Positions 547 to 50,849 of a stretch of 54,040 nt of DNA are shown in pieces. The stretch's first letter is position 1. Every line of letters starts with the position of its first letter. The notes beneath the pieces are model-generated. The model was not told where the DNA came from. It ran no database searches and saw nothing but the letters and a program-made list of their open reading frames with translations. This stretch comes from a virus (Duplodnaviria; Caudoviricetes), in IMG/VR virus record IMGVR_UViG_3300023223_000319, positions 1 to 54,040 of that record; one strand, given 5' to 3'. The position numbers were made by a program, and so were the translations under genes.

Positions 547-612
547 GGCAGAGGCCGGTCTTATCAACCGGTGTGGCGCCTTCCTTTCGATAAGCCTTTG
601 ATAGGGGTTTTT
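547..612 (+). promoter_or_regulatory. Structured leader (hairpin whose loop matches downstream sites near the RBS)
   Basis: CCGGT-CTTATCA-ACCGG hairpin (555-571); the loop is complementary to GATAAG (589-594) and TGATAGG (599-605). Confidence 0.45.
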
Positions 613-9374: not shown

Positions 9375-11762
9375 ATGCCGATAGATAGAGATTATTCTGA
9401 TGTTAATGCAGTCCTTATCCTTATTGAAGAGGCCCAGGATAGTGAGCGCAACCGTCGAGACAAGGTAAAGGAGGCTAAATGCTTCCTGACTAAACGTGAT
9501 GGGATGTGGCACCAGGACTCATGGGATAAGATGGCCGGGCATTATAGGGGTACATTCGACATGTGTACACCTATCGTTGATGGCATAGCAGGCGAGATAG
9601 ATCAATCAGACTTCACGCTGAGAGTCAGCCCTAGCGGCGGCAGAGCCAGCGAAGATACCGCTAGAACCCTGGACGGCCTAATCCGCAACATTCGCAACAT
9701 CTCTAATGCTGAAGACACCTTCAATAAGGCCGGACGATCAAACGTTGTGGGTGGATTTGACGCATGGGAAGTAGTCCAAGACTGGATTGATGGCGATTCA
9801 TTCGACCAAGATCTATTCATCCGTAGAATACCTGACGCTGCAAAGTCCGTATGGTTTGACATGGCCTCTGTCATGCAGGCTCCTGAAGATGCTAATTGGG
9901 CGATTAAGCTTGTTGGCATGCCAATAGCTGACTACCAGGCAAAATGGCCTGATGGCAGTCTCGTCTCTATAGGCGATAACTCAAGAGTTCCCCGGGATAA
10001 AAATAACCCAAAAGAAATAGTAACCGTTGGGCAGCTGTATTTTAAAAAACCTATCGAAATTGACCTCGTAAGAATGAATAACGGAGACGTTTATCAGGAT
10101 GATGATAAATTCAAGGCAGCTCAAGACGAATTGGCCGAGCAGGGAATTACCATTGAGGTCGATGACGAGGGGGAAGAAAAGCGCAGAACTCGCAAAAGCT
10201 GGCGCGTTCATTCTCGCATGCTTGACGGGTCAATGTGGCTAGCCGAAGAAGAAGAGACGGTCTTTGACTTCATTCCAATCGTCCCGATCTACGGTAATTA
10301 CGACTTTATTGACGATGAGCGTGTTTATTTTGGCAAGATTGAGAACCTGCTAGACCCTCAGAGGGCATATAATTATGCCGTGAGCCGAGATATCGAAGAT
10401 GGAGCTCTATCTCCTGCCGCAACAACGTGGATGACTGATAAGCAGGCAGAGGGTAATGATTATTCAAAAATGAACTTCGATCGTGCGCCGATTCGGATTT
10501 ATAACAACGACACAGCCGCAAAATCACCCCCATTCAAGACGCAAGGACCACAGGCCAGTGCTGGGCTACAGACCACAATGGCCAATATGCAGCAGATGAT
10601 TACAGTATCATCTAATACGTTCAACGCTCAACAAGGTAACGCTAGCTCGACACAGAGTGGCGTGGCAGGACTGCAACAGATTGAGCAGGGTAACATTGGA
10701 TCAATCAAGTGGTTTAAAGATCTTGAAATTGCTATTTGTTATACCGGCAAAGTATTGATTAGTGGCGCTATATCAAGAGTTTATGACGGCACTCGACTAG
10801 CGAGAATATTGGGAGAGGACGGCACCTCTAAGATGGTCGATTTGAACAAGCAGGTCTTCGATGATGAAGCTCAGGCAAACGTCACATTGAATGACCTGTC
10901 TATCGGCGAATACGATGTAGTCTGCGAAGTAGGTCCAGCATTTAACAGTGCACAGAAAGAGGCTGCCCGGGCATTTGAGGCAATCGCATCAGTAAGCCCT
11001 GACGTAGCCGCACGAAACATGGATATCTGGCTGAAGAACAAGAAAGAGCCAGGAATGGACATGATGGCTGAGAGGGAGCGAGAAGCCCTGTTTAACGCAG
11101 GACAGATACCGCAAAGCCAATGGACTGATGAAGAACAGCAAAAGGTAGCAGAGGCGCAAGCACAAGCCGCACAACAACCTCCACAGGAAGATCCTATATT
11201 GATTGCTGCAAGGGGCGCAGAAGCCGAGGGGCAGGCCGCCATATTAACAGCCCAAAACAAACAGGCAGAAATACAAGGTAATCAGCAATTGTCTGTGATG
11301 GAGTTACAACTTAAAGACAAACAGCTCGACCTAGACACGCAGAAGTTCATCCGCGCAGGCCAGGACAAGTTTAATGTTGAAGCTGCCAAGATCGGTCAGG
11401 GCGCTACAAAGCTAGATCAATCGCAGCAGTCAATCGACCAGAAAGACCAGCAGATGCTAATCGACGCCCAACAGAATCAAGACAAAATCGATCTACAGGC
11501 CAGAGAGCAGGTTATGGCCGAACAGCAGCAACAGCTCGATAGCGCCTTAAAGATACAACAGGAGCAGCGAGAGGAGCTAACAGCTGCTATTAGCGATCTC
11601 AAGACATTACGAGAAGCCATGGGGGTCGCAACGATTGTAGGGCCTCACAGCACGGAAGCGTATGTTAGCCAGGCTGTAGCAGTCACTGAGATACAAGAGG
11701 AGTCCGGGATTGATACCGAGATAGGCGAGACAGTGGCAGGGACTGCGGGTGATGAGATCTAA
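9375..11762 (+). CDS. P22-like portal protein
   Basis: 795 aa after TerL; FIPIVPIYG, DPQRAYNY, GEYDVVCEVGPAF motifs; long Gln-rich C-terminal coiled coil. Confidence 0.9.
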   Translation: MPIDRDYSDVNAVLILIEEAQDSERNRRDKVKEAKCFLTKRDGMWHQDSWDKMAGHYRGTFDMCTPIVDGIAGEIDQSDFTLRVSPSGGRASEDTARTLDGLIRNIRNISNAEDTFNKAGRSNVVGGFDAWEVVQDWIDGDSFDQDLFIRRIPDAAKSVWFDMASVMQAPEDANWAIKLVGMPIADYQAKWPDGSLVSIGDNSRVPRDKNNPKEIVTVGQLYFKKPIEIDLVRMNNGDVYQDDDKFKAAQDELAEQGITIEVDDEGEEKRRTRKSWRVHSRMLDGSMWLAEEEETVFDFIPIVPIYGNYDFIDDERVYFGKIENLLDPQRAYNYAVSRDIEDGALSPAATTWMTDKQAEGNDYSKMNFDRAPIRIYNNDTAAKSPPFKTQGPQASAGLQTTMANMQQMITVSSNTFNAQQGNASSTQSGVAGLQQIEQGNIGSIKWFKDLEIAICYTGKVLISGAISRVYDGTRLARILGEDGTSKMVDLNKQVFDDEAQANVTLNDLSIGEYDVVCEVGPAFNSAQKEAARAFEAIASVSPDVAARNMDIWLKNKKEPGMDMMAEREREALFNAGQIPQSQWTDEEQQKVAEAQAQAAQQPPQEDPILIAARGAEAEGQAAILTAQNKQAEIQGNQQLSVMELQLKDKQLDLDTQKFIRAGQDKFNVEAAKIGQGATKLDQSQQSIDQKDQQMLIDAQQNQDKIDLQAREQVMAEQQQQLDSALKIQQEQREELTAAISDLKTLREAMGVATIVGPHSTEAYVSQAVAVTEIQEESGIDTEIGETVAGTAGDEI

Positions 11763-12978: not shown

Positions 12979-13075
12979 TATCGCTTGACCTTTAGTTATC
13001 TTTGGTTTACTTTTGTACCCAGTGTTAGAGAATAGCACTTTTAACTACAAATACTCAATCAAAAAGGTAAATATC

Positions 13076-13645
13076 ATGGATCTGCAAATTATTGAAAAAG
13101 GCGCAACATTTGAACTGGACGTAGTATCAAAGCAGGAAGGCCCCAAAACTTACTACTTCGGTGCTGGCTGGGATAATCCCAATGGCCCTGTTGATCTTGA
13201 TATTGTTTGTGCTCTTTTGAAAGACGGCAAACTGGCCGGTAATGGTGACTTTGTTTATTTCGGCAATCGTAATGCCGCTGGTGTTGCTTTGTCTGAAGAT
13301 AACCAGACCGGCGAAGGTGAAGGCGATGACGAAAGCATTGTTATTAATACAGACGAAATCGATCCTGCCGTTGATAGCATTGTTATTGGCCTGGCTGCTT
13401 ATGCTGGTGCCGATCTTCATTCGGCGCCAAACCCTCACTTCCGCGTTTGTGATGGCTCAGAAGAGTCTAGCGAGCAAATCGGCGATGTTGTGGTTACTGG
13501 TGGCGCTATTGCCGGCGACACTGTCCTGGTCGCGTTTACGTTGAATCGTGGTGCTAATGGATGGAGCCTGGAGAATAATGCAGCGTTCCATGCCAAAGGC
13601 CAAGGTACTGGTGCTATTCAAGGTTTCGGCGCTTTGTTCTCGTAA
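13076..13645 (+). CDS. terD: TerD-family protein
   Basis: GAGWD, VDLDIVC, DFVYFGN, DNQTGEGEGDDESI; AAGG RBS before ATG 13076. Confidence 0.92.
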   Translation: MDLQIIEKGATFELDVVSKQEGPKTYYFGAGWDNPNGPVDLDIVCALLKDGKLAGNGDFVYFGNRNAAGVALSEDNQTGEGEGDDESIVINTDEIDPAVDSIVIGLAAYAGADLHSAPNPHFRVCDGSEESSEQIGDVVVTGGAIAGDTVLVAFTLNRGANGWSLENNAAFHAKGQGTGAIQGFGALFS

Positions 13646-13667
13646 TAGCACATTAAATCATACGCTC

Positions 13668-13692
13668 GCGGCCTTCGGGCCGCCTTATTTTT
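13668..13692 (+). terminator. Hairpin/terminator between terD and terB
   Basis: GCGGCC-TTCG-GGCCGC followed by a T-rich tail. Confidence 0.6.
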
Positions 13693-13704
13693 AGAGGGTT
13701 TATC

Positions 13705-14142
13705 ATGTTAAATACTTTTACAAAATTTCTCGAAGGTATTGCAGAAGAGGGTGAAAAGCTATTTTCCAGAGTCAAGGATAAAGCATTATTTCGCAAGGTT
13801 GTTTCTGCCAGCTTTCTTATTGCTCGTGCCGATGGCGATTTTGATTCTGATGAAAAAACAGCGCTGGCGACGATCGTTTCTAAAAAGCTTTCTCACTTTA
13901 GCATCGGTGATATTTTAAAAGTCCTGAATGATTGTGAGGAAAAAGTTGCCTTTGATGAAACTATGGGCGTTATGGAAATAATGGACGATATCTGCACGGC
14001 ATCAGGTAGCGATGCTGAAATGATACTTCGAATCTCTTGCTTTATTGGCGCCTCAGACGGCGATTTTGACGCCGATGAGAAAAAGGTTGCCTCGGATATG
14101 GCTAAGCGCATGAGCCTTGATCCTTCGGGTTATGGGCTGTGA
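13705..14142 (+). CDS. terB: TerB-family protein
   Basis: Two repeats, ARADGDFDSDEK and ASDGDFDADEK; ends LDPSGYGL. Confidence 0.9.
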   Translation: MLNTFTKFLEGIAEEGEKLFSRVKDKALFRKVVSASFLIARADGDFDSDEKTALATIVSKKLSHFSIGDILKVLNDCEEKVAFDETMGVMEIMDDICTASGSDAEMILRISCFIGASDGDFDADEKKVASDMAKRMSLDPSGYGL

Positions 14143-15047
14143 TAGGCTATCCACTGGTTACGGTCTCCGTCTTTATCGGCATAGCGGTTATGTTATTTGC
14201 CGCTGACCTTTTTGCGCATAAGAAGAAGGAGGCGGTATCTTTTAAATCATCCGTCATGTGGTCATTGATATATATAGCAGGTGCCATGTGTTTTGCGGCA
14301 TTTCTTTACTTCTATCATGGTCAGCAGGCGGCAAGCCTGTTTTTAACGGGGTATACGCTAGAGAAAGTCCTGGCATTTGATAATCTTTTTGTCTTCTCTC
14401 TGATATTTGCTTATTTTAAAATACCTGCACCTGATAGGCATGCAGCACTTCACTGGGGGATTATCGGGGCTATAGTATTTAGACTGGTATTCGTTGTCAT
14501 TGGCGTTGAATCAATGAGCCTATTTGGCCCTGTAATGGAGTTTATATTTGCTTGCTTAATAGCATTCACTATTTACCTAATAGTAAAGTCTGGCGATGAT
14601 GAGGCTGATTATGACAATGTGTGGTATGTAAAATATATCAGAAGGCATTTCCCTTCAGTAACGCCCTTTATCATTGCTATATGCGCTATTGAGATAAGTG
14701 ACATCATGTTTGCTTTTGATAGCGTGCCTGCGGTGATCGCCGTCACTAAAGACCCTTTGTTGATCTATAGCTCAATGATATTCGCAATACTTGGCTTAAG
14801 GTCTTTGTATTTCGTTATAGACTCGCTGTCGTCGTGCTTGAGATATATGGATGCATCGATCATATGCGTGCTGTCTTTTATCTCCATTAAACTTGCTGCC
14901 CATTCGATAACTGGATTTCATATTGAAGCAAATCACAGTTTGATTGTCGTTATTTCAATATTATCAGTTGGTATAATTTTATCTTTATTTAAAGGATCTG
15001 ATCATGAAAAAGAACCCAATACTGAAGCATCTTCGAAAGCCTCTTAA
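14139..15047 (+). CDS. terC: TerC/Alx-family membrane protein
   Basis: GYTLEKVLAFDNLFVF, WGIIGAIVFR, IEISDIMFAFDSVPA, FAILGLRSLYF. Confidence 0.95.
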   Translation: MIGYPLVTVSVFIGIAVMLFAADLFAHKKKEAVSFKSSVMWSLIYIAGAMCFAAFLYFYHGQQAASLFLTGYTLEKVLAFDNLFVFSLIFAYFKIPAPDRHAALHWGIIGAIVFRLVFVVIGVESMSLFGPVMEFIFACLIAFTIYLIVKSGDDEADYDNVWYVKYIRRHFPSVTPFIIAICAIEISDIMFAFDSVPAVIAVTKDPLLIYSSMIFAILGLRSLYFVIDSLSSCLRYMDASIICVLSFISIKLAAHSITGFHIEANHSLIVVISILSVGIILSLFKGSDHEKEPNTEASSKAS

Positions 15048-15234
15048 GTGGGCTGCCCTGGCTATATTCTGCATCATCGCTCTATCTCGAGGCGTCAGCT
15101 ATATTGCTGGCGCTTACTCATGTAGCTCGGAATGGAAAGAGAGCGGCATGGATTACAAATACAAATTAAGTGCCGGCTGCATGATAAGCCCTAACGGCAA
15201 CTGGATTCCTGCGCGAAATTACAGGATTGATTGA
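15004..15234 (+). CDS. Small membrane-anchored protein
   Basis: One hydrophobic segment, two Cys, ends WIP.RNYR. Confidence 0.6.
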   Translation: MKKNPILKHLRKPLKWAALAIFCIIALSRGVSYIAGAYSCSSEWKESGMDYKYKLSAGCMISPNGNWIPARNYRID

Positions 15235-15336
15235 GGCTTTTGGGTCTGTTTTGGCGAAATATCTAGGGATGGATAAGTTCCTGCTTATTGATAGTCCGTC
15301 TGCCAATGCGTTTTTATAATAGAAAGGAATATAAGT

Positions 15337-15669
15337 ATGGAAAAACAATGTAGTCACGGCGTCGAATGGGACGTGCACTGCGCTGAGTGTGAGATGGTCA
15401 GCCTGGATGAGACGATATTTCATGCAGGCAAAGCCCTTGCTTTAGCTAAGGCAACGAAGATTGAGGTGCAGGCGTTAATCAACGCTCAGCGTGAGGCTCT
15501 TAGTGACGCTAGTTGGCCTGATCATTTAAAGCGAGATGCACCTTATGCTCAATGCGATCAATGCCGGCGTAAGTCATGGACTTCCAAACAATTCGGCAGT
15601 ATTTGCGGAATGGTTGATCTAGACAGGAATAGAACTTGCCCTGGCCGCTTAATAAAAACAGTTCAATAA
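15337..15669 (+). CDS. Cys-rich putative Zn-binding protein
   Basis: CSHG...CAEC and CDQC...C...C motifs; AGGA RBS. Confidence 0.55.
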   Translation: MEKQCSHGVEWDVHCAECEMVSLDETIFHAGKALALAKATKIEVQALINAQREALSDASWPDHLKRDAPYAQCDQCRRKSWTSKQFGSICGMVDLDRNRTCPGRLIKTVQ

Positions 15670-15692
15670 TGCACGACTACTGGAGTTAGAAG

Positions 15693-16922
15693 ATGAGCAA
15701 GTATAAATATATATTTGACGATACGGCATCCAGCCCAATCAAGCATTGGACTAAAGGCGTGGAGCTAGACGATAAAGCAAGAGACCAGCTATACAATATT
15801 GCCTCGATGCCATTCATCCACAAGCATGTTGCAGTGATGCCTGATGTTCACTGGGGCAACGGGGCTACCATAGGATCAGTTATAGCCACCAAGGGAGCCA
15901 TTATACCGGCTGCGGTAGGCGTTGATATTGGCTGCGGAATGATGGCGCTTAAAACGTCACTAAAGGCCACTGACCTGCCTGATAACCTTCACGCTATACG
16001 CAGCGCCATAGAGGCAGAAATCCCCCATGGGCGCACTGATAACGGCGGTAAGAATGACAAAGGCGGATGGGGTGATGTAATGCCATCGGATAACGCCGAT
16101 TCATGGCTAAGGCTTTCTGTTGGTTATGAAGCTATATTGGCAAAGCACCCTAAAGCGAAGTCATTCAATAACGCATCTCACCTAGGAACGCTCGGAACTG
16201 GCAACCACTTCATTGAATTATGCCTTGATGAAAATGACGATGTTTGGGTAATGCTGCATTCTGGTTCTCGTGGAGCCGGCAACCGTATTGGCATGTATTT
16301 CATTGAGAAAGCGAAAAAGGAGATGGAGCGATATTATATTGATAAGTATCTGCCGGATCGTGAGCTTGCCTATTTAGTTGAGCATTCGGAGATTTTCGAT
16401 GATTACGTTTCTGCGGTTGCGTGGGCCCAGGATTACGCGCTTGAAAACAGAAAGCTTATGATGGCTCAAGTTTTAGGTGCGATGAAGCGACACTTAAAGC
16501 CATTCACAATTGAAGATGAGGCGATTAACTGCCATCACAACTACATAGATAGAGAGAATCATTTCGGCTCTAATGTGTGGGTGACTCGCAAAGGTGCTGT
16601 TCGCGCCAGAGAGAAAGATTTAGGGATTATTCCAGGCTCCATGGGCACCGGGTCATTCATTGTTCGCGGACTAGGCAACAAAGACTCATTCTGTAGCTGC
16701 TCTCATGGAGCTGGCCGCGTAATGTCTAGAGGTGAGGCAAAGAGAAAGATAACGCTAGAGCAGCACGAAAAAGCCATGACAGGAATCGAGGCGAGACTTG
16801 ATGCCGGCGTCATTGATGAAAGTCCTGCGGCCTATAAAGACATTGGCGCGGTAATGGATGCTCAGAGTGACTTAGTTGAAATTGTTTATCGTCTTCGTCA
16901 AGTGATAAATGTTAAAGGCTAG
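15693..16922 (+). CDS. rtcB: RNA-splicing/repair ligase RtcB
   Basis: MPDVH.G.G, GVDIGCGM, GTLGTGNHFIE, HSGSRG, HNY, PGSMG, SHGAGR, DESPAAYKDI, VKG end. Confidence 0.97.
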   Translation: MSKYKYIFDDTASSPIKHWTKGVELDDKARDQLYNIASMPFIHKHVAVMPDVHWGNGATIGSVIATKGAIIPAAVGVDIGCGMMALKTSLKATDLPDNLHAIRSAIEAEIPHGRTDNGGKNDKGGWGDVMPSDNADSWLRLSVGYEAILAKHPKAKSFNNASHLGTLGTGNHFIELCLDENDDVWVMLHSGSRGAGNRIGMYFIEKAKKEMERYYIDKYLPDRELAYLVEHSEIFDDYVSAVAWAQDYALENRKLMMAQVLGAMKRHLKPFTIEDEAINCHHNYIDRENHFGSNVWVTRKGAVRAREKDLGIIPGSMGTGSFIVRGLGNKDSFCSCSHGAGRVMSRGEAKRKITLEQHEKAMTGIEARLDAGVIDESPAAYKDIGAVMDAQSDLVEIVYRLRQVINVKG

Positions 16923-16968
16923 GCCACTAGCGCGCATTACAGAATGTTAACTTGATGATATCTGGCTG

Positions 16969-17086
16969 TGCTATAATATCAGCTTGGCTTTGGTCGGCCT
17001 AATTCGTAAGTTAACAAAGCTCAGGCTTTTATCCTTTATCGCACTTACGCGAAACGACCAAAGGGATAGAAGTCTGAGCTTTTTTA
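16969..17086 (+). promoter_or_regulatory. Promoter plus attenuator-like leader of the NAD operon
   Basis: TGCTATAAT extended -10; long stem 17016-17037/17060-17082 followed by a T-run; the 5' TTTGGTCG and TTCGTAAGT complement the hairpin loop. Confidence 0.7.
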
Positions 17087-17098
17087 TTGGAGAACAAT

Positions 17099-17926
17099 AT
17101 GATTTCAATAAGGATTTGTGGAGATAATTATTACCCATCCGTTATGGTTTTCTCTGGCGGTGAGGTCAATGTAACACTCCCCACTATATTGCCTTACTCT
17201 ATTGACTCATACACATTGAAGGCAAAAATAAAGAGTTCCGAAGATTTAATGACTCTCTTTATGGTGAAGAATGCTCTCAATGTTAAATATGGATCAAATG
17301 TTACATCTCAGCTAATAATCCCATATCTGCCTTATGCCAGACAGGACAGGGTATGTAATCCTGGTGAGGCGCTATCAATCAAGGTTATGGCTGACCTTAT
17401 TAATAGCATGGCCTTCTCAAGGGTGATTACCTACGACAACCATAGTGACGTATCCACGGCGCTTATCGACAACTGCAACAACAAACTGCCAAGTCAGCTA
17501 ATTGCTCAATGTGGTGAAATTAATAACCTTCTTACAAAGACAAGGGTATCTCTGTGCTGTCCTGATGCCGGAGCAGCCAAGAAGGTCTATGGAGTGTCTA
17601 AGGCCTATGGAGGGGTGCCGGTTGTTATGGCTGAAAAGATTCGTGATGTAAAGACAGGTGAAATTACCCATACCGAGGTTTATGCCGATGATCTTGGCGG
17701 ACAAAGCATTCTTGTAATTGATGATATCTGCGATGGAGGAATGACATTTATTAAGTTGGCTGAAAAACTTATAGCAAAAAATGCAGGCCCACTATTTTTA
17801 TATGTTACTCATGGAATTTTTAGCAAGGGACTAGATGCTCTTTCCATGTATCAAAAGATATATACCACTGATAGTTTTTCAGCAGTAGAAGACGGAAACG
17901 ATAAACTTTACATAATCAAGCCATAG
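17099..17926 (+). CDS. Ribose-phosphate pyrophosphokinase-like protein (likely NARP1 Adps)
   Basis: FSGGE, PYLPYARQDR, PDAGA, VIDDICDGGMTF, VTHGIFSKG; immediately upstream of the NAMPT homologue. Confidence 0.9.
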   Translation: MISIRICGDNYYPSVMVFSGGEVNVTLPTILPYSIDSYTLKAKIKSSEDLMTLFMVKNALNVKYGSNVTSQLIIPYLPYARQDRVCNPGEALSIKVMADLINSMAFSRVITYDNHSDVSTALIDNCNNKLPSQLIAQCGEINNLLTKTRVSLCCPDAGAAKKVYGVSKAYGGVPVVMAEKIRDVKTGEITHTEVYADDLGGQSILVIDDICDGGMTFIKLAEKLIAKNAGPLFLYVTHGIFSKGLDALSMYQKIYTTDSFSAVEDGNDKLYIIKP

Positions 17927-17935
17927 GATAACACC

Positions 17936-19498
17936 ATGAAAATCAACCCTTTAACTCAAATTGACTTCTACAAAGCCGATCACAGGCGTCAATATCCAGA
18001 CGGAACTACGCTGGTGTACTCTAATTTCACCCCTCGCAGCGATAAGCTTGCGCCTATCCTAGAAGAATTTTGGGATGGCAAGATTACATTCTACGGGCTT
18101 CAGGGTTTTTGTAAGTGGTTCCTGATTGATCTATGGAATGCTGAATTCTTCAATAAGCCAAAAGATATTGTGGTGAAGAAATATAAGCGCAGAATGGATA
18201 CTTCTTTAGGCGTTGACGCTATCGATATTGCCCACATTGAAGCTCTGCATGACCTGGGATATCTACCTGTCAAGATCAAGGCACTCCCCGAAGGCTCTCA
18301 AGTTGGCATGAAAGTCCCGGTATTTACCATTGAAAACACGCTACCTGAATTCTTCTGGCTGACTAACTACCTTGAGTCGGTAATGAGCACGGAGATATGG
18401 AAGCCGTGCACTACTGCAACCATTGCATTTCAGTATAAAAAGCTGCTTACGAGCTATGCAGTGGCAACAGGGGCTCCTTTAGACTTCGTACCTATCCAGT
18501 GTCACGACTTCAGCTTACGCGGCCTCAGCGGACTGCATGACGCCCACTCTAGCGCATCCGGCCACTTGCTTAGCTTTGTTGGTACGGACTCAATTCCAGC
18601 CATCGACTATTTAGAAGAGTATTACAATGCAGACTGCGAGAAAGAGCTTGTGGGTTGTAGCGTACCGGCGACAGAGCATTCAGTGATGTGTATGGGCGGC
18701 CAGGATGATGAGATAGGAACTTTCCGGCGCCTTATTACTGAAACCTATCCTGCTGGAGTGGTCTCTATAGTGTCTGATACTTGGGATTTCTGGAAGGTTG
18801 TCACTGAGTACACCGTGGCCCTGAAAGATGAAATCATGAGTCGGAAGCCCAATGTCATCGGATTAAATAAGGTGGTCTTGCGTCCAGATAGCGGCGATCC
18901 TATACGGATTATTTGCGGTTATACCGAAGATGAGATAATCAGAGATCCTCATGGCTGCATCCAAGTCAAGGCGAGCTCTGGCGCTAAAAACCTTACTGAG
19001 CATGAAGTAAGGGGCGCAGTACAGTGCTTATGGGATATATTCGGAGGTACTGAAACTTCACTGGGTTATAATTTACTCGATGAGCATATTGGCCTGATTT
19101 ACGGCGATTCAATTACCTTGCGGCGGGCCAAAGAAATCCTCCAGCGGTTGAAAGATAAGGGCTTTGCGTCCACTAACGTGGTATTTGGTGTGGGTTCCTA
19201 TACATATCAATACAATACCCGGGACACATTCGGCTTTGCCATGAAGGCAACTTATGGCGAAGTTAATGGAGAGGGGCGAGAGATATTCAAAGACCCGGCC
19301 ACTGATGACGGCATTAAGAAGTCTGCTAAAGGCCTTCTAGCTGTTGTTGATGGTTCTGACGGGTATCAGCTGGTAGGCCAATTAACCCGGGAGACTCAAG
19401 AGCTTCTCTGCGTGATGGATGTTGTGTTTGCCGATGGAGGGATGATCAGGGATCAATCTTTGTCTGGAATCCGTGAGTTAATCGATAACTCTTTGTAA
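17936..19498 (+). CDS. Nicotinamide phosphoribosyltransferase-like protein (likely NARP1 Namat)
   Basis: DFYKADH, HDFSLRG, SVPATEHSVM, SIVSDTWD, RPDSGDP, IYGDSIT, RDTFGFAMKAT, KKSAKG. Confidence 0.95.
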   Translation: MKINPLTQIDFYKADHRRQYPDGTTLVYSNFTPRSDKLAPILEEFWDGKITFYGLQGFCKWFLIDLWNAEFFNKPKDIVVKKYKRRMDTSLGVDAIDIAHIEALHDLGYLPVKIKALPEGSQVGMKVPVFTIENTLPEFFWLTNYLESVMSTEIWKPCTTATIAFQYKKLLTSYAVATGAPLDFVPIQCHDFSLRGLSGLHDAHSSASGHLLSFVGTDSIPAIDYLEEYYNADCEKELVGCSVPATEHSVMCMGGQDDEIGTFRRLITETYPAGVVSIVSDTWDFWKVVTEYTVALKDEIMSRKPNVIGLNKVVLRPDSGDPIRIICGYTEDEIIRDPHGCIQVKASSGAKNLTEHEVRGAVQCLWDIFGGTETSLGYNLLDEHIGLIYGDSITLRRAKEILQRLKDKGFASTNVVFGVGSYTYQYNTRDTFGFAMKATYGEVNGEGREIFKDPATDDGIKKSAKGLLAVVDGSDGYQLVGQLTRETQELLCVMDVVFADGGMIRDQSLSGIRELIDNSL

Positions 19499-19507
19499 TT
19501 AATAACT

Positions 19508-19542
19508 GCTCCTAGCAGGGTCGAGTCCTGCTAGGAGTACCA
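19508..19542 (+). ncRNA. 35-nt tRNA minihelix-like element
   Basis: GCTCCTA GCAGG GTCGAGT CCTGC TAGGAGT A CCA: 7-bp acceptor stem plus 5-bp T-stem, 7-nt loop, discriminator and CCA. Confidence 0.6.
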
Positions 19543-19556
19543 ATTTAAGGGTTAAT

Positions 19557-20030
19557 ATGAGCATCAAGGAAATAACCATGAAGACTAATGGAGTGAGAGG
19601 TTTCTGCGGAATCGGGCTAGATAATCCAAAGAGCAATATTAATGTTGGCGCGGCTTTAAGAGCTGCCGGAGTCTATGGCGCTTCATTTGTCGCTGCAAGT
19701 GGTGGGCGATGGACAAGCGACAAAACTGACACCATGAAAAGTTACAGGCACTTACCTTTACTACGTCCTGAGAATCTAAGGGACTTACTGCCGTATGACT
19801 GTGTTCCCGTTGCTGTTGATTTAATCGAGGGGGCAATTGCACTGCCGGAATACAAACATCCAGAAAGAGCCTTTTATATATTTGGCGCAGAGGATGCGAC
19901 GTTGGGCGAAAGAATCACTGGGTGGTGTCGAGATACTATCTACATACCAACTAACGGGTGTATGAATTTAGCGGCCACTGTAAATGTCGTGCTTTATGAC
20001 AGGCTGGCTAAAAGCTTAATTAAGGATTGA
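19557..20030 (+). CDS. SpoU/TrmH-family (SPOUT) RNA 2'-O-methyltransferase
   Basis: NPKSNINVGAALRAA, YIFGAEDATL, IPTNGCMNLAATVNVVLYD. Confidence 0.92.
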   Translation: MSIKEITMKTNGVRGFCGIGLDNPKSNINVGAALRAAGVYGASFVAASGGRWTSDKTDTMKSYRHLPLLRPENLRDLLPYDCVPVAVDLIEGAIALPEYKHPERAFYIFGAEDATLGERITGWCRDTIYIPTNGCMNLAATVNVVLYDRLAKSLIKD

Positions 20031-20031
20031 T

Positions 20032-20292
20032 ATGTCTATTGACGAAAACAGCTACAACCAAGGATCTCGCATGGCATGGCGACGAATGCTTCAGCAATGT
20101 TGCCGTGAGCTAGGATATGATGATATTGAAACAGATAAGGCCAGATGGATATTAGAGCGAGAGGCGGCTATTAGTGCGCTGCGTAGCGTCTGCTCAGGTC
20201 ATGGCGATAATGACTGGGAAGATAATTTGTACATGGGAGATATTATAGAGAAGCATTTGCTCAATAACCTTGAGTCTGCTTCTGGCGGCTAG
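20032..20292 (+). CDS. Hypothetical protein
   Basis: Packed after the methyltransferase; GDNDW...DIIEKHL. Confidence 0.6.
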   Translation: MSIDENSYNQGSRMAWRRMLQQCCRELGYDDIETDKARWILEREAAISALRSVCSGHGDNDWEDNLYMGDIIEKHLLNNLESASGG

Positions 20293-20294
20293 AT

Positions 20295-21248
20295 TTACCC
20301 TCTGTATACAGAGATAAGCCAGTCATCCCAAAAGCCTGTATCAACCTTATCTGGATAAGGCGACTTATCAGCCAAGCCCTCAACCTCGGCTATGAGGCTT
20401 TCTAGCAACGGCTGCACGAATGATAGAAAATCATAATCTCCAATCTTAATGCCTCGGATTACGTCCCTATCCTTCAGTGGATATTCAATGCAGCCATTCA
20501 AGTATATCTCCTTAAGCTGATAAGCAGCCCTGATAGCGTGAGAGACAGCCTTCCAGTCAATACCCTCATTATCCTTTGCTTGCCGCGCACGCTCACCGTA
20601 TGAGCTCCATTTTACATCCATGGAGGCGATAAACTGATGTAGCGGCATGGAATTCTGATACTTGGAGCCTAGAACCTCATAAAACTCCTGCTCTTCGCCT
20701 GATTTCAGCTTGTCGTTAATGAATCTGCAATGATCATTAACAGGCAATTTATCCCAGATAGATAATAGCTTTCTTGGCTCCGAGAGAATATGCTGCCTTG
20801 ATACATTCCATACCTCTTCAAGCGCGCCCATTCTACTGCCTTTTAGGCCATACTTGGCGGCCTGCTTCTTGGCATACCCAAGGAAGGCTTTCATATTTTT
20901 AGTGTAGAATCGGTCTTTGTTAGCCACGATAAAAGCCCATTCAGGCGAGCCACAAAGAACCATTTCCCTATTAGTGTGGGCATGCAGCATATCCAGAGCT
21001 ATAGTTTCACCCTGGCAAGCCAGCTTGATAAACTCAGGCAATGAATACCAATCGCTATCAATATCATCGGATGAGTTCTTGGTTTCGTTATTGCCGGATG
21101 ATTCGCTGACCTGCCTAGGAGACTTACCTAATAACAGCTCATCCAGCTCAGGCATGAAGACGCCTTTGTAGTCCGTGTCTGACTGAGGCGTATCAAGCCC
21201 ATACAGATGCGAGCCGTGAATGCACTGGAATAGCTTTTTGTATTTCAT
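20295..21248 (-). CDS. Pol-beta-superfamily nucleotidyltransferase (RlaP / T4 NrdC.11-like)
   Basis: GSHLYGLDTPQSDTDYKGVF, GYAKKQAAKYG.KGSR, DWKAVSHAIR. Confidence 0.88.
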   Translation of the reverse strand: MKYKKLFQCIHGSHLYGLDTPQSDTDYKGVFMPELDELLLGKSPRQVSESSGNNETKNSSDDIDSDWYSLPEFIKLACQGETIALDMLHAHTNREMVLCGSPEWAFIVANKDRFYTKNMKAFLGYAKKQAAKYGLKGSRMGALEEVWNVSRQHILSEPRKLLSIWDKLPVNDHCRFINDKLKSGEEQEFYEVLGSKYQNSMPLHQFIASMDVKWSSYGERARQAKDNEGIDWKAVSHAIRAAYQLKEIYLNGCIEYPLKDRDVIRGIKIGDYDFLSFVQPLLESLIAEVEGLADKSPYPDKVDTGFWDDWLISVYRG

Positions 21249-21793
21249 TTTGGCCCCAAGTAATAATCAATGATAATTCTGCTCAGCGTATTCCATAGCT
21301 CTTTGTCTCCGTCCTTGAGAAGGCCGAGTAATAACTGCATTTCTTTCATGTATACTTTCGCAAAGCCTGGATCATGCTGAGTTATGGACTCCGAGTTATG
21401 AATCAAGTCGGCAAGTTTTACTGTCTTGGCGCGATCAGAAATCCCTGATAGGTGTTCTCGGTCCATAGCCTTGCGAATAGCACGATTCCCATCTTCAGGC
21501 TTTGATACATCAGACGGCTCTACAACCATATTAGCGACCGTACACCCAAAGCCTGCTCTCATAATGTCTTGATGTGTTATCGTAGTATCCTCAATAACGT
21601 CGTGCAGTATCGCGGAAGTCACCATATCTACGTCATAGTAATCACAAGTCATAACAATCTTGGCAACGGCTATAGGGTGGTTGATATAGGGCTCTCCGGT
21701 GTATTTCCTTACTTGGTCGCCATGGGCTTCATTGCCGAATTTCACAGCAAAATCGATTAAATCCTGGCTTCTTTCGTAGATTATTCCGTGCAT
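21245..21793 (-). CDS. Stand-alone HD hydrolase (SpoT-hydrolase/Mesh1-like)
   Basis: AH.DQVRKYTGEPYINHP, AILHDVIEDT, VKLADLIHN. Confidence 0.9.
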   Translation of the reverse strand: MHGIIYERSQDLIDFAVKFGNEAHGDQVRKYTGEPYINHPIAVAKIVMTCDYYDVDMVTSAILHDVIEDTTITHQDIMRAGFGCTVANMVVEPSDVSKPEDGNRAIRKAMDREHLSGISDRAKTVKLADLIHNSESITQHDPGFAKVYMKEMQLLLGLLKDGDKELWNTLSRIIIDYYLGPK

Positions 21794-22808: not shown

Positions 22809-23648
22809 ATGAGTGATGAAGGGCTACAAACCGGTGAATTGTCGCAAGAAAATCAAGCGGCTAGTGCCGAAAACCAACCTGCTGAGCAACTAAGTCAACA
22901 GGCTGGAGCGGAGTTAGCAACCGATACTGAAGGGCAGCAGGAAAAAACAGCCCAAGTTGATGAGGCAGCAGCGAAAGCAGCAGCGGCCACTCAGAAGGTT
23001 ATCAACGAAAAGCATTTTCAGACCAAGCAGGCAGAGCGAGAGCGCGACGACGCCCTGGCACAGATTGCAACGTTTGAACAGGAAAAACGAGACGCTGAAG
23101 CCGCGAGAGCCGGCGATATCCCTCCCATTCCTGAAGAGTTCGATGATAATTTTAAAGAGAAAATGGTGGAGCGAGATGCGGCTATAGCACGACAAGCCAC
23201 GTTTCAAGCTAGCCAGGCCAATTACAACCAGCAGCTGGAGAATCAGCAAGCATTAGCGCAACAGCAGGCTCAGGCGGAACGGCAGCAGAAAGTTGTTAGC
23301 TATAACGCCAAGGCAGTAGAGTTTGGTATTAATGAGGCAGAATTGCGAGCGGCAGAAAATGCAGTAATGAGTTACGGACTTTCCGATGACACATCCGCCC
23401 ACATTATGGCGGATTCAGACGGCCCGTTAATTGTTAAGCACTTGGCTGCAAACCCGGCAGACACGATGACGCTAGTGAATATGTCGCCGTTTCAACAGGG
23501 TGCATTTTTGGATCACATTAAGGCCAAAGCTAGTGCGCTTAAACCAAAACAAACGCAAACCCCCAATCCTCCGGAGATTTTGACCGGTGGTGGCGCTCAA
23601 GTTGATGTTGATAAATATCCAAATAGCGCAGGGGCAACTTTTTCATAA
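22809..23648 (+). CDS. Scaffolding protein
   Basis: Acidic Q/A/E coiled coil directly before the coat gene; GPLIVKHLAANP and PNPPE tail. Confidence 0.8.
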   Translation: MSDEGLQTGELSQENQAASAENQPAEQLSQQAGAELATDTEGQQEKTAQVDEAAAKAAAATQKVINEKHFQTKQAERERDDALAQIATFEQEKRDAEAARAGDIPPIPEEFDDNFKEKMVERDAAIARQATFQASQANYNQQLENQQALAQQQAQAERQQKVVSYNAKAVEFGINEAELRAAENAVMSYGLSDDTSAHIMADSDGPLIVKHLAANPADTMTLVNMSPFQQGAFLDHIKAKASALKPKQTQTPNPPEILTGGGAQVDVDKYPNSAGATFS

Positions 23649-23665
23649 TTTAAGGAGCCACACTC

Positions 23666-24949
23666 ATGGCTAATAACTTTAATAACTTTACGCTAGAGAT
23701 AGCGAAAGCATTCCTTGATGGCTTCGAAGCCGCAAGGGTTTTATCAAAAAACGTTAACACCCAAATGCTAGACGGCAAGTTTAATCCAGATACTGGCACG
23801 GTAACCGACTTTAAGCGTCCGACAGACTACCTGACGGTCCGGTCACCTACTGGCGATGTTTCTGGTGACACCGCATCAAATATCATTACAGGCCGCGCAC
23901 ACGGTACAGTTCAGGACTATTTCACATCTTTTGTAGAGTTCGATGAAGCTGATGAAGCTTTGAAGATGGGCAATTTGAAAGAATTACTTGCGCCTATGGC
24001 TTTGCGTGTTGTGACTGATCTCGAATTGGATTTTGGTAAGTTTATGTTAGAAAATGGTGGCTTGCTTTCCGGAGCCCCTGGTACGGCAATTACTACATGG
24101 TCAGATGTTGCAAATGCTAGCGCTGTATTGAAATCAACTGGCGTACCAAAGGATGCCCCGTGGGTTGCTGCGGTCAACTCATTCACGCAGATCACATTAG
24201 CCAATGATCAGCGCTCTTTGGGCTCTGGCGGAACATCAGGCGAGTTAATTACTCAAGCTCACAAAAACGCAATCATCAGCGATAACTTTGCTGGATTAAA
24301 GGTTATGACCGCCGATACGCTGGGAAGTTATACCACTGGCGCGGAAGCTGACCGAGTCGGTGTAATCGCAGGCGCCAACCCAGATGTTACCTATGTTGGT
24401 GCTAAAGACACGATGACTCAAAACATTCAGGTCAGTGGGTTTGGTGCCGGCGCAACAGTGATCAAAGCCGGCGAAACCTTGCAGATTTCAGGCCGTAATC
24501 GTCTTAATCTTGCTACTCGTGAGCTTATTCTGGACGCTTCTGGTGCTGCAATCCTGTTTACCGGGACTGTAACAACTGACGTAACTCTTACTGCTGGCGC
24601 TGGTATTATCAATATCACAGGGCCTGCATTGTTTGAAACTACTGCCGGTGACGGCGCTTATAATACGGTGGATTCTGCGCCTATTATTGGCGATGTTGTT
24701 ACTCTGCTTGGTGCTGCTTCTACGACTATTCAGCCTAATTTGTTCTGGCATCGAGATGCATTTTCAATCGGCTCTGTTCCGATTAAGCGTCTTAGCGCTC
24801 AGGATACTTTTGCCGAAACCAAAGACGGTATTCAGATGCGAGTTACACAAGGCTCTGACTTCCTTGCGAACACTAACAAGGTTCGTATTGATATCCGGCC
24901 TGCCTTTGCAGCGTTAAATCCTTTCTGGGCTGGGCAGCTTTTCGGCTGA
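23666..24949 (+). CDS. Major capsid protein (P22 coat family)
   Basis: 427 aa, MANNF start, PNLFWHRDAF, VRIDI..AFAALNP.WAG; strong AGGAG RBS. Confidence 0.9.
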   Translation: MANNFNNFTLEIAKAFLDGFEAARVLSKNVNTQMLDGKFNPDTGTVTDFKRPTDYLTVRSPTGDVSGDTASNIITGRAHGTVQDYFTSFVEFDEADEALKMGNLKELLAPMALRVVTDLELDFGKFMLENGGLLSGAPGTAITTWSDVANASAVLKSTGVPKDAPWVAAVNSFTQITLANDQRSLGSGGTSGELITQAHKNAIISDNFAGLKVMTADTLGSYTTGAEADRVGVIAGANPDVTYVGAKDTMTQNIQVSGFGAGATVIKAGETLQISGRNRLNLATRELILDASGAAILFTGTVTTDVTLTAGAGIINITGPALFETTAGDGAYNTVDSAPIIGDVVTLLGAASTTIQPNLFWHRDAFSIGSVPIKRLSAQDTFAETKDGIQMRVTQGSDFLANTNKVRIDIRPAFAALNPFWAGQLFG

Positions 24950-50689: not shown

Positions 50690-50767
50690 CTGTGTGTAGC
50701 TCAGCTTGGTTAGAGTGCTCGGTTTGGAACTGAGGGGTCGTAGGTTCGAATCCTACCACACAGACCA
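50690..50767 (+). tRNA. tRNA-Pro (TGG)
   Basis: Cloverleaf: CTGTGTG/CACACAG, CTCGG-TTTGGAA-CTGAG, GTAGG-TTCGAAT-CCTAC, ACCA. Confidence 0.95.
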
Positions 50768-50772
50768 CTTTT

Positions 50773-50849
50773 GCTCCCTTAGCCCAATTGGCAGAGGCGC
50801 TGGATTTAGATTCCAGAGGTTCTAGGTTCGACTCCTAGAGGGAGTACCA
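50773..50849 (+). tRNA. tRNA-Leu (TAG), short variable loop
   Basis: GCTCCCT/AGGGAGT, CTGGA-TTTAGAT-TCCAG, CTAGG-TTCGACT-CCTAG, ACCA. Confidence 0.92.

What the first reader, a model, noticed from the sequence alone, without database searches (positions are those of the whole stretch)
19508..19542. 35-nt tRNA minihelix with ACCA end directly upstream of a tRNA methyltransferase
Seen: GCTCCTA-GCAGG-GTCGAGT-CCTGC-TAGGAGT-A-CCA is an acceptor stem fused to a T-arm, with the D and anticodon arms cleanly absent. It has the length and geometry of a classic minihelix, apart from G in place of T54. It shares the G1-U72 pair, GCTCC/GGAGT and A73 with this phage's tRNA-Leu (50773), with compensatory changes at pairs 6-7. 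It lacks a U-tract, so it is not an ordinary terminator. Inference: it may be an RNase P/Z processing signal for the operon, an anticodon-less decoy or substrate for tRNA-targeting toxins or for the neighbouring RtcB, RlaP and SPOUT enzymes, or a deleted-tRNA relic.
Basis: partly seen in the sequence, partly recalled or inferred. Interest (0 to 1): 0.78.

Follow-up and report, generated by a model that had tools for sequence, protein, structure and literature searches.

The report
tRNA-derived minihelix inside a phage operon
A phage gene row contains a 35-base hairpin that looks like a tRNA reduced to its acceptor stem, T arm and CCA tail; it is probably a leftover tRNA gene that still attracts tRNA-processing enzymes, but there is only one copy and its function is untested.

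Summary
Window 19508-19542 folds into a 12-pair helix (11 Watson-Crick pairs plus G1.U72) with a 7-nt loop, followed by ACCA. This is the geometry of a tRNA acceptor/T-arm minihelix. It is the only perfect hairpin of 11 pairs or more in the 54-kb contig.

Its nearest matches among 50,697 phage genomes are the 3' halves of real tRNA genes. The best is tRNA-Ile(GAT) of Vibrio phage VCPH, not the phage's own tRNA-Leu, which ranks 7th of 114.

The element lies on the sense strand between NAMPT and a SPOUT methylase. No promoter-like site and no U tract adjoin it. Two other hairpins in the same island do have U tracts.

My best reading is a tRNA gene that lost nucleotides 8-48. It is co-transcribed and probably cut by host RNase P, so it would act as an intercistronic processing or stability signal like the plant-mitochondrial t-elements. 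That step is inferred.

The only syntenic relative lacks the element, and no second copy was found anywhere. Conservation, expression and cleavage remain untested. A neutral relic, a chance hairpin and a CCA-end decoy stay open. The neighbour is a SPOUT 2'-O-methylase of unknown substrate, not a proven tRNA methylase.

The parts
19508..19514 (+). 5' acceptor strand (positions 1-7), directly abutting the T stem with no residues 8-48
   Evidence: pairs with 19532-19538
19515..19531 (+). T arm: 5-bp stem and a 7-nt loop GTCGAGT (G at position 54). The 17-mer is identical to the T arm of a tRNA-Leu(CAG) in L003
19532..19538 (+). 3' acceptor strand (positions 66-72), ending in the T that makes G1.U72
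19539..19542 (+). discriminator A73 and the encoded CCA end
   Evidence: both full tRNAs of the phage also encode A-CCA
19499..19507 (+). 9-nt spacer after the NAMPT stop codon (TAA, 19496-19498). It ends in T at position -1, just before the predicted RNase P site
   Evidence: the cleavage site is inferred
19543..19556 (+). 14-nt trailer with a Shine-Dalgarno-like AAGGG (19547-19551) before ATG 19557. An alternative SpoU start is ATG 19578, with AAGGA at 19566-19570
   Evidence: the database gene call for this protein is 150 aa, i.e. start 19578
17936..19498 (+). upstream gene: nicotinamide phosphoribosyltransferase (NAMPT)
   Evidence: Pfam PF04095 at 1.2e-39 and NAMPT_N; homologues align to residue 520
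19557..20030 (+). downstream gene: SPOUT/SpoU-family 2'-O-methylase of unknown substrate
   Evidence: PF00588 at 2.1e-12
17087..17926 (+). ribose-phosphate pyrophosphokinase (Prs), which forms a conserved module with NAMPT
   Evidence: Prs lies next to NAMPT in 77 of 80 related loci

Best explanation
The element is a tRNA-derived acceptor/T-arm minihelix. It has the make-up of a phage-type tRNA gene from which nucleotides 8-48 (the D arm, anticodon arm and variable region) are missing. This leaves a seamless 12-bp helix, a T-like loop, A73 and an encoded CCA.

It sits on the sense strand inside the gene row Prs-NAMPT-[element]-SpoU-orf86. It starts 9 nt after the NAMPT stop and ends 14 nt (or 35 nt) before the SpoU start. 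No promoter-like site and no U tract adjoin it, so it is transcribed as part of the mRNA.

Most likely the host's tRNA-maturation enzymes treat it as a pre-tRNA. RNase P would cut between U19507 and G19508. That cut would separate the NAMPT message from the SpoU-orf86 message, which would then begin with a fully paired 5' end. Cleavage and trimming after CCA could release a 35-nt RNA. On this reading it works as a tRNA-like intercistronic processing and stability signal.

Shown: the anatomy, the sequence kinship to tRNA 3' halves, the position in the operon and the lack of a U tract. Inferred: the deletion origin, co-transcription, RNase P cleavage and any effect on expression.
For: 1. Geometry and stability.

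2. tRNA kinship. In a blastn of the 39-nt element against 50,697 phage genomes, 43 of the 60 listed rows lie on annotated tRNA genes. Of 4 unlabelled rows I checked, 3 are tRNAs by ARAGORN or by the record's own features. The best hit is VCPH tRNA-Ile(GAT): 27 of 30 nt, E 0.01. Its 5' acceptor strand also fits, giving 28 of 32 scored positions. The exact 17-nt T arm occurs in a real tRNA-Leu(CAG) in L003.

3. It is not a full tRNA. ARAGORN finds nothing here, even with intron, tmRNA, mitochondrial or relaxed settings, and Rfam finds nothing significant.

4. It is not built like the two terminator-like hairpins found elsewhere in this island. TerD is followed by a GC stem plus a T run at 13668-13683. 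RtcB is followed by a 22-bp stem plus T6 at 17016-17085. This hairpin is followed by ACCAATTTAAGG.

5. No promoter-like site on the + strand lies between 18331 and 19556, so SpoU expression seems to depend on read-through of the hairpin.

6. Precedent for a tRNA at this spot. In 3 of 80 Prs-NAMPT loci a full tRNA gene starts within 40 nt after NAMPT on the same strand (L081, L105, L114). In T5-like phage HMD-P3 a tRNA-Thr 3' end is followed by a trailer and start codon that match the window's in 18 of 20 nt.

7. From the sequence, with the rules recalled from RNase P literature: U at -1, G at +1, a 12-bp coaxial helix and 3' ACCA are the determinants of bacterial RNase P substrates. Non-tRNA substrates, including polycistronic mRNAs and phage regulatory RNAs, are listed in the review PMC4919922 (passages seen). 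t-elements that direct RNase P/Z cuts at mRNA ends are described in PMC1920247 (passages seen).
Against: There is a single copy, with no conservation or covariation evidence.

The one syntenic relative (L040/L313: coat 86% aa, TerD-TerB-TerC and SpoU present) lacks RtcB-Prs-NAMPT. It has no structured element upstream of SpoU (fold z = -0.9).

No other gap-free minihelix was seen. The degenerate pattern gave 0 hits in viral contigs. There were none in 2.15 Mb of fetched loci, and no INPHARED hit covered the 5' strand.

G54 departs from the T-loop consensus.

A perfect helix is equally expected from a recent deletion with no selection.

There are no RNA data (one search listed no run).

Minihelices are weaker RNase P substrates than full tRNAs (recalled, not tested).

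Any stable hairpin here could stabilise mRNA without RNase P.
Confidence: 0.4

Rival explanations
1. Neutral relic. This would be a tRNA gene that sat next to the Prs-NAMPT module, was recently truncated by an internal deletion or a recombination junction, and is merely tolerated. The helix is perfect only because the event is young.
For: The element is absent from the only syntenic relative and lies at the right-hand edge of the RtcB-Prs-NAMPT block that this relative lacks. Other degenerate tRNA-like leftovers occur in phage tRNA regions (L068 5048-5110, L309, L062). G54 suggests relaxed T-loop constraint. No second copy was found anywhere.
Against: The deletion would have to remove exactly residues 8-48 without leaving a bulge. 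All 12 pairs, A73 and CCA are intact. The element sits in a tight 58-nt intergenic gap where useless sequence is usually lost.
Confidence: 0.27
2. Generic intergenic hairpin whose tRNA likeness is coincidental. It would act as an mRNA 3'-end protector, a weak attenuator for the + strand, or a weak terminator for antisense transcripts arriving from the convergent RlaP/HD genes.
For: It is a strong GC-rich stem 9 nt after a stop codon, where moron terminators sit. orf86 and RlaP converge with a 2-nt gap and no terminator between them. The - strand also folds well (-23.5 kcal/mol, z = -4.6) and is followed by a T-rich AGTTATTAATTA. The scan listed a small - strand terminator-like site at 19518-19506. 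Across a scan of very many windows, some chance minihelix look-alikes are expected.
Against: Chance does not explain 27 of 30 identity to a real tRNA-Ile 3' half, nor the 43 of 60 best database rows on tRNA genes. There is no U tract on the + strand, whereas two other hairpins in this island (after TerD and after RtcB) have one.
Confidence: 0.13
3. Trans-acting minihelix RNA. Released by RNase P and 3' trimming, the CCA-ended 35-mer would serve as a decoy, sponge or sensor for host immunity that attacks tRNA acceptor ends. Alternatively it would be a substrate or cofactor of the neighbouring RNA enzymes (RtcB, RlaP nucleotidyltransferase, SpoT-like HD hydrolase, SPOUT methylase).
For: The island holds RtcB (PF01139, 9.7e-129), an RlaP-family nucleotidyltransferase and a SpoT/RelA-type HD hydrolase. 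Defences that act on the CCA end exist and accept minimal substrates. [quoted passage not shown] A second SpoU homologue (L062, 64% identity) is preceded by an unclassified acceptor/T-arm/ACCA element.
Against: There is no evidence that the RNA accumulates. It has no promoter of its own, so it would be made in no more than one copy per operon transcript, which is poor for a sponge. The link to SpoU homologues is weak: apart from L062 and the window, 2 of 44 viral loci have tRNAs within 300 nt. No recurrence was found in other phages.
Confidence: 0.1
4. DNA-level element: an inverted-repeat protein-binding site, or the tRNA-derived core of an attachment or recombination site.
For: It is a perfect 11-bp inverted repeat with a 7-bp spacer. 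It lies at a mosaic boundary relative to L040. Phage attP sites often contain tRNA 3' ends (recalled).
Against: An attP core would not carry the 5' acceptor strand fused to the T stem. No integrase turned up among the 41 ORFs that the family scans covered. A 23-nt pattern of the T arm plus 3' strand has 0 matches in 185,579 species genomes, and the longer 28-nt version running through ACCA has 0 matches in 5 candidate host-like genomes at up to 3 mismatches.
Confidence: 0.04

Closest known systems
Synthetic tRNA acceptor-T-arm minihelices used as minimal substrates for RNase P, CCA-adding enzyme and some aminoacyl-tRNA synthetases (recalled from the literature; the review PMC9976931 appeared only in a search listing)
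   Same: Identical architecture: a 7+5 bp coaxial helix, a 7-nt T loop and N73-CCA, 35 nt in all.
   Different: Those are laboratory constructs. This one is genome-encoded, embedded in an mRNA, and has G54. Its processing and charging are untested.
Plant-mitochondrial t-elements (Forner et al. 2007, PMC1920247; passages seen)
   Same: They are tRNA-like structures inside polycistronic or pre-mRNAs. They carry the T-arm motif GGTTCRANYCC, which this element matches at 10 of 11 positions by my reading. They are proposed or shown to direct RNase P/Z cuts that create mRNA ends, and some are released as stable small RNAs.
   Different: t-elements are organellar, mostly non-canonical cloverleaves. 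Some transcripts carried non-encoded 3' C or CC additions (passage). This element is in a phage, is a pure minihelix and encodes its CCA.
Bacterial and phage non-tRNA RNase P substrates: operon mRNAs, 4.5S and tmRNA precursors, and the phage P1/P7 C4 antisense RNA precursor (listed in review PMC4919922, passages and reference list seen; the primary C4 paper PMC41593 was not held)
   Same: They are structured RNAs that mimic the acceptor/T-arm part of a pre-tRNA. Some are phage-encoded and some lie between cistrons.
   Different: None is described there as a clean tRNA deletion derivative. Cleavage of this element is only inferred.
Full tRNA genes placed directly before ORFs in T5-like phages (e.g. 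tRNA-Thr of Escherichia phage HMD-P3, L307)
   Same: The same 3' end, trailer, Shine-Dalgarno-like motif and start-codon layout. The 20 nt from CCA to ATG match the window's at 18 of 20 positions.
   Different: Those are complete, decodable tRNAs. The blastn match itself is not significant (E 0.6).
Intrinsic terminators
   Same: A GC-rich stem-loop just after a stop codon.
   Different: There is no U tract on the + strand, and a gene with no promoter-like site of its own follows after 14 nt.

Membership tests
canonical tRNA gene | cloverleaf with D arm and anticodon arm | tested here: not met
   ARAGORN finds only tRNA-Pro 50690 and tRNA-Leu 50773. It finds nothing at 19400-19650 with intron, tmRNA, mitochondrial or relaxed settings. 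Rfam tRNA gives no match at gathering score or at E<=10.
canonical tRNA gene | 7-bp acceptor stem, 5-bp T stem, 7-nt T loop, discriminator | tested here: met
   scores 28 of 32 positions against VCPH tRNA-Ile(GAT)
acceptor-T-arm minihelix | 12-bp uninterrupted helix, 7-nt loop and single-stranded NCCA | tested here: met
   the gap between the 5' acceptor strand and the T stem is 0, the only such case among 66 T-arm/NCCA motifs examined
acceptor-T-arm minihelix | T-loop consensus T54-T55-C56-R57-A58 | tested here: not met
   T55, C56, G57 and A58 are present, but position 54 is G. G54 occurred in 2 of 100 phage tRNAs; one of these was a mis-registered call and the other had been fetched for sharing this T arm.
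acceptor-T-arm minihelix | exists as a discrete CCA-ended RNA | not testable with these tools
   no sequencing run was listed
bacterial RNase P substrate | acceptor-like helix with 3' RCCA, G at +1, preferably U at -1 (rules recalled) | tested here: met
   T19507, G19508, A19539, CCA 19540-19542
bacterial RNase P substrate | cleaved by RNase P | not testable with these tools
   needs an enzyme assay or transcript-end mapping
t-element (plant mitochondria) | tRNA-like fold with the GGTTCRANYCC motif, whose ends coincide with mRNA termini | tested here: inconclusive
   the motif matches at 10 of 11 positions (against the motif quoted in PMC1920247); the termini are unknown; the organellar context does not apply
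intrinsic terminator | U tract immediately after the stem | tested here: not met
   the tail is ACCAATTTAAGG; not listed on the + strand by the scan
attP / tRNA 3'-end integration core | identity with a host tRNA 3' end and a neighbouring integrase | tested here: inconclusive
   0 matches of a 23-nt T-arm/3'-strand pattern in genome contigs and 0 matches of the longer 28-nt pattern in 5 candidate genomes. No integrase among the 41 ORFs scanned. The host is unknown and not every ORF was scanned.
TrmL / tRNA 2'-O-methylase (the neighbouring gene) | matches the curated TrmL family model | tested here: not met
   no NCBIfam hit at E<=0.01. By profile against the PDB, TrmL scores E about 0.9 and TrmJ 0.002. 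Only the general SpoU Pfam domain matches.

The most novel reading that the evidence does not exclude
A phage encodes a natural, anticodon-less tRNA minihelix that is excised from an anti-defence and RNA-repair operon. As a CCA-ended RNA it would decoy or report host immunity aimed at tRNA acceptor ends (CCA-tail nucleases such as Cas12a3, CCA-pyrophosphorylating toxSAS, 3'-end nucleotidyltransferase toxins). It would work together with the neighbouring RtcB, RlaP nucleotidyltransferase, SpoT-like hydrolase and SPOUT methylase.
Probability: 0.08. Interest if true: 0.85.

Novelty: new variant of a known kind. Interest (0 to 1): 0.45.

Why it matters
If the element is cut by RNase P, it would be a bacterial-virus counterpart of tRNA punctuation and plant-mitochondrial t-elements. 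It would show that a tRNA gene stripped to the minimal RNase P/CCA recognition module can be kept as an operon-processing signal. It would also be a natural instance of the minihelix that has mostly been studied as a laboratory construct. It lies in an island of RNA-repair and NAD-salvage genes, so it is also a cheap, testable candidate for interplay with defences that target tRNA 3' ends. If it is only a relic, it documents how phage tRNA genes decay at module boundaries.

Tried and rejected
Relatives. SpoU-based locus searches gave 44 loci in viral contigs, 80 in metagenome contigs and 80 in genome contigs. The NAMPT-based search gave 80 loci and the coat-based search 18 loci. None holds the element. 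Only L040/L313 is syntenic.

Exact and degenerate DNA patterns. The 17-mer T arm gave 22 viral loci. Of these, 21 hold no tRNA gene by ARAGORN and 1 is a real tRNA-Leu. The outer-stem pattern gave 0 hits. The T-arm plus 3'-strand pattern gave 0 hits in genome contigs and 0 in 5 genomes.

RNA families. Rfam at gathering score and at E<=10 gave nothing meaningful. The best hit was a - strand 'Plastid-ycf2' match at E 0.32, rejected as chance.

Sequencing runs. None was listed, and no RNA holder was listed.

Literature. A search for minihelix + bacteriophage + tRNA + RNase P gave 3 papers, none describing a phage-encoded minihelix (listing only). A search for truncated tRNA / acceptor stem / T-arm / hairpin / phage gave 37 papers, 15 listed, none describing one (listing only). 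The claim that this is undescribed rests on these two searches. Supplements were not consulted.

Rejected idea. The element is not specifically a derivative of this phage's own tRNA-Leu.

Full report
OBSERVATION

A 7-nt strand (19508-19514) runs straight into a 5-nt strand (19515-19519). A 7-nt loop GTCGAGT follows (19520-19526), and then the two complementary strands (19527-19531 and 19532-19538). This gives 12 consecutive pairs: 11 Watson-Crick pairs plus G19508.T19538. Then come A19539 and CCA (19540-19542).

As RNA the + strand folds at -24.3 kcal/mol, with z = -3.8, and 0 of 200 shuffles fold as well. In the inverted-repeat scan of the whole 54,040-nt record it is the only pair of arms of 11 nt or more that is 100% complementary. 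The 'genome' held for this window is the same 54-kb virus record.

IS IT MORE THAN CHANCE?

I scanned all DNA fetched by that point: 227 sequences, 1,459,239 bases, both strands. I found 799 hairpins with at least 11 of 12 pairs and a 7-nt loop. Five had an NTCRANN loop, and two of those lie in loci fetched precisely because they contain the same 17-mer. Fourteen were followed by NCCA. Only the window's hairpin had both features.

A later scan covered 331 sequences and 2,151,982 bases. It found 108 hairpins with 12 of 12 pairs. One had the T-like loop (this one) and five had NCCA.

This implies roughly 0.0002-0.003 such objects per window by chance. That is rare, but over a scan of very many windows some accidents are expected, so geometry alone does not settle the matter.

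KINSHIP TO REAL tRNAs

Sequence kinship to real tRNAs settles it better. I ran blastn with the 39-nt element against 50,697 phage genomes. By my count, 43 of the 60 listed rows lie on annotated tRNA genes (Ile, Met, Lys, Glu, Asn, Arg, Pro). I opened 4 of the 17 unlabelled rows. Three are tRNAs by ARAGORN or by the record's own tRNA feature (L310, L311, L312). One (L309) is a tRNA-like remnant that ARAGORN does not call at default settings.

All matches start inside the T stem and run through the CCA. None covers the first five bases of the element, so no second minihelix of this sequence exists in that collection at this sensitivity.

The best hit is tRNA-Ile(GAT) of Vibrio phage VCPH, with 27 of 30 nt and E 0.01. 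Its 5' acceptor strand also fits. Scored over acceptor stem, T stem, loop and discriminator, it matches 28 of 32 positions.

The exact 17-nt T arm, G54 included, is the T arm of an ARAGORN-called tRNA-Leu(CAG) in viral contig L003. The other 21 of the 22 exact matches hold no tRNA gene by ARAGORN.

THE CLAIMED LINK TO THE PHAGE'S OWN tRNA-LEU

The shared outer five acceptor pairs, G1.U72 and A73 are real. But that tRNA scores 22 of 32 and ranks 7th of 114 distinct phage tRNAs (mean 16, sd 3.7). It ties with or falls below unrelated tRNA-Arg(CCT) genes. This ranking includes four loci fetched for their similarity, which inflates the top ranks.

G1.U72 is not rare in these phage tRNAs: 12 of 102 have it. 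So the element derives from some phage-type tRNA, not demonstrably from the resident tRNA-Leu.

G at position 54 is unusual. Among 100 well-folded tRNAs, position 54 is T in 88, A in 9, G in 2 and C in 1. One of the two G cases is a mis-registered call, and the other is the L003 tRNA fetched for this very T arm.

WHAT IT IS NOT

It is not a tRNA gene. ARAGORN finds only tRNA-Pro(TGG) at 50690 and tRNA-Leu(TAG) at 50773. It finds nothing at this locus with intron, tmRNA, mitochondrial or relaxed settings. Rfam gives nothing at gathering score and only chance-level hits at E<=10.

It is not a canonical terminator. The tail is ACCAATTTAAGG, and the scan lists nothing on the + strand here. Two other hairpins in the same island do carry T runs. 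One is a GC stem plus T run at 13668-13683 after TerD. The other is a 22-bp stem at 17016-17037/17061-17082 that runs into a T6 tract after RtcB.

An attP-type tRNA 3' end is unlikely, for three reasons. The 5' acceptor strand is fused to the T stem. A 23-nt pattern of the T arm plus 3' strand has 0 matches in the genome collection, and the longer 28-nt version running through ACCA has 0 matches, at up to 3 mismatches, in five genomes that carry SpoU homologues. No integrase appeared among the 41 ORFs covered by the family scans.

CONTEXT

The contig is a P22-like/lambdoid phage. It has a P22-type coat protein (PF11651, 4e-50), a portal, a large terminase, and NinB, NinG and exonuclease genes.

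Between the portal (9375-11762) and the scaffold/coat genes (22809-24949) lies an accessory island. On the + strand it carries, in order:
- TerD, TerB and TerC
- two small ORFs
- RtcB (15693-16922; PF01139, 9.7e-129)
- Prs (17087-17926)
- NAMPT (17936-19498)
- the element
- a SpoU-family methylase (19557-20030)
- orf86

Converging on the - strand are an RlaP-family nucleotidyltransferase (20295-21248) and a SpoT/RelA-type HD hydrolase (21245-21793).

The element starts 9 nt after the NAMPT stop codon. It ends 14 nt before ATG 19557, which has AAGGG at 19547-19551. The database gene call (150 aa, P0001) instead uses ATG 19578, which lies 35 nt away.

No promoter-like site on the + strand lies between 18331 and 19556. 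The methylase is therefore most simply expressed by transcription through the hairpin.

The methylase is not a demonstrated tRNA enzyme. It matches only the general SpoU Pfam domain and has no NCBIfam hit. By profile against solved structures, TrmJ scores E 0.002, a YjfH/RlmB-type entry 0.0065 and TrmL about 0.9. 'TrmL' is merely the name JGI gives to homologues.

COMPARATIVE EVIDENCE

This evidence is thin and mostly negative.

Of 204 loci with a SpoU homologue, only two share any other island gene. L061 has a distant RtcB. L040/L313 is a true relative: coat 86% aa, TerD 76%, TerB 52%, TerC 60% and SpoU 65%. It lacks RtcB-Prs-NAMPT. Upstream of its SpoU gene it has two small ORFs and no significant structure (z = -0.9). 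The element therefore sits at the right-hand edge of a block that this relative lacks.

The Prs-NAMPT pair is a conserved module, found in 77 of 80 NAMPT loci. In 3 of the 80 (L081, L105, L114) a complete tRNA gene begins within 40 nt after NAMPT on the same strand. A tRNA at exactly this position is thus a recurring arrangement.

In T5-like phage HMD-P3, a tRNA-Thr 3' end is followed by a trailer, a Shine-Dalgarno-like motif and a start codon. These match the window's in 18 of 20 nt. The blastn hit itself has E 0.6, so this is suggestive only.

Closer SpoU proteins exist in the protein collection: P0002 at 94%, and P0003 at 92% on a 30.8-kb contig.

MECHANISM

I commit to this reading: a tRNA gene reduced to its acceptor/T-arm domain, co-transcribed with the operon, and recognised by host tRNA-maturation enzymes.

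From the sequence, the element has U at -1, G at +1, a 12-bp coaxial helix, a T-like loop and 3' ACCA. As I recall from the RNase P literature (not tested here), these are the determinants of bacterial RNase P substrates.

Two sources give precedent. The review PMC4919922 lists polycistronic mRNAs and phage regulatory RNAs among bacterial RNase P substrates (passages and references seen). Forner et al. 2007 (PMC1920247) show tRNA-like t-elements whose ends coincide with mitochondrial mRNA termini and that can be released as small RNAs (passages seen).

A cut at 19507/19508 would detach the NAMPT message and leave the SpoU-orf86 message with a base-paired 5' end. An AU-rich trailer right after CCA would allow 3' cleavage and trimming, which could release a 35-mer.

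All of this is inference. No RNA data could be found.

RIVALS

Neutral relic. A neutral, recent deletion relic explains the lack of conservation, the G54 and the position at a module boundary just as well. Other decayed tRNA-like leftovers turned up in phage tRNA regions (L068, L309, L062). Against it stand the exactness of the 8-48 loss, the intact 12 pairs plus ACCA, and the tight 58-nt spacer.

Generic hairpin. This could include a weak terminator for antisense transcripts from the convergent RlaP/HD genes, which abut orf86 with no terminator between them. It fails to explain the tRNA sequence kinship.

Trans-acting decoy or enzyme substrate. This is the most interesting reading. CCA-end-directed defences exist and accept minimal acceptor-stem substrates. 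These are Cas12a3 (PMC12851939) and toxSAS enzymes whose action small alarmone hydrolases reverse (bioRxiv 10.1101/2021.04.30.441581). A SpoT-like hydrolase, RtcB and a nucleotidyltransferase are neighbours. But nothing shows that the RNA accumulates. It has no promoter of its own, and the pattern does not recur.

NOVELTY AND VERDICT

tRNA-like processing signals and hairpin RNase P substrates are known kinds. A clean, genome-encoded acceptor/T-arm/CCA minihelix inside a phage operon did not turn up in two literature searches (listings only), nor anywhere else in the sequence collections searched. I therefore rate it a new variant of a known kind.

It rests on a single locus with no functional or evolutionary support yet. 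Interest is moderate (0.45). The experiments that would decide it are cheap.

Noticed in passing
window 16969-17088: The RtcB-Prs gap holds an extended -10-like TGCTATAAT (16969-16977). A very stable 22-bp hairpin follows (17016-17037/17061-17082) and runs into a T6 tract, directly before the Prs ribosome-binding site. It looks like a moron-type promoter plus terminator, or a leader attenuator. The segment folds at -61.8 kcal/mol with z = -4.8. The Prs start is probably an ATG just downstream of the listed TTG at 17087.
   Followed up: partly
window 13013-21793: An accessory island lies between the portal and scaffold/coat genes of a P22-like phage. It carries TerD, TerB, TerC, RtcB, Prs-NAMPT (NAD salvage), a SPOUT methylase, an RlaP nucleotidyltransferase and a SpoT-like HD hydrolase. 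This is a likely anti-defence and RNA-repair gene set.
   Followed up: partly
window 50773-50849: The tRNA with the Leu anticodon TAG is only 77 nt long and has a 5-nt variable region, a class I shape. As I recall, bacterial tRNA-Leu normally has a long variable arm. ARAGORN names it by anticodon only. It carries G1.U72 and an encoded CCA.
   Followed up: no
L062 3691-3832: About 190 nt upstream of a SpoU homologue (64% identity) lies a ~140-nt element. It has a paired acceptor-like stem, a T arm with loop TTCGAGT and a 3' ACCA. A long structured insert replaces the D and anticodon arms. ARAGORN (tRNA, intron and tmRNA modes) and Rfam do not recognise it. The fold gives z = -3.0.
   Followed up: partly
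L068 5048-5110: Right after a tRNA-Arg(TCT) in a Prs-NAMPT phage contig lies a tRNA-like element. It has a fully paired acceptor stem, a T arm and CCA, but only 28 nt between the 5' acceptor strand and the T stem. That leaves room for one arm only. ARAGORN does not call it.
   Followed up: no
L309 300-335 (Shigella phage SHSML-45, T5-like): An unannotated T arm (loop TTCGAGT) with a CCA-containing tail lies in an intergenic region. ARAGORN does not call it a tRNA at default settings and gives only doubtful calls at a relaxed threshold. It is a likely tRNA remnant.
   Followed up: partly
L003 1-14583: This viral contig has 29 tRNA genes. Several have unusual T loops beginning with A54 (ATCGTAC, ATCGTTA and similar), and one tRNA-Leu(CAG) has G54.
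   Followed up: no
window 20290-20297: orf86 (+) and the RlaP nucleotidyltransferase gene (-) converge, with stop codons 2 nt apart and no terminator between them. Each transcript must run antisense into the other gene.
   Followed up: no
window 571-1212 and 40811-41380: Two paralogous HNH endonuclease genes of the same PHROG family (phrog_953; E 3e-82 and 2e-71) lie in one phage contig.
   Followed up: no
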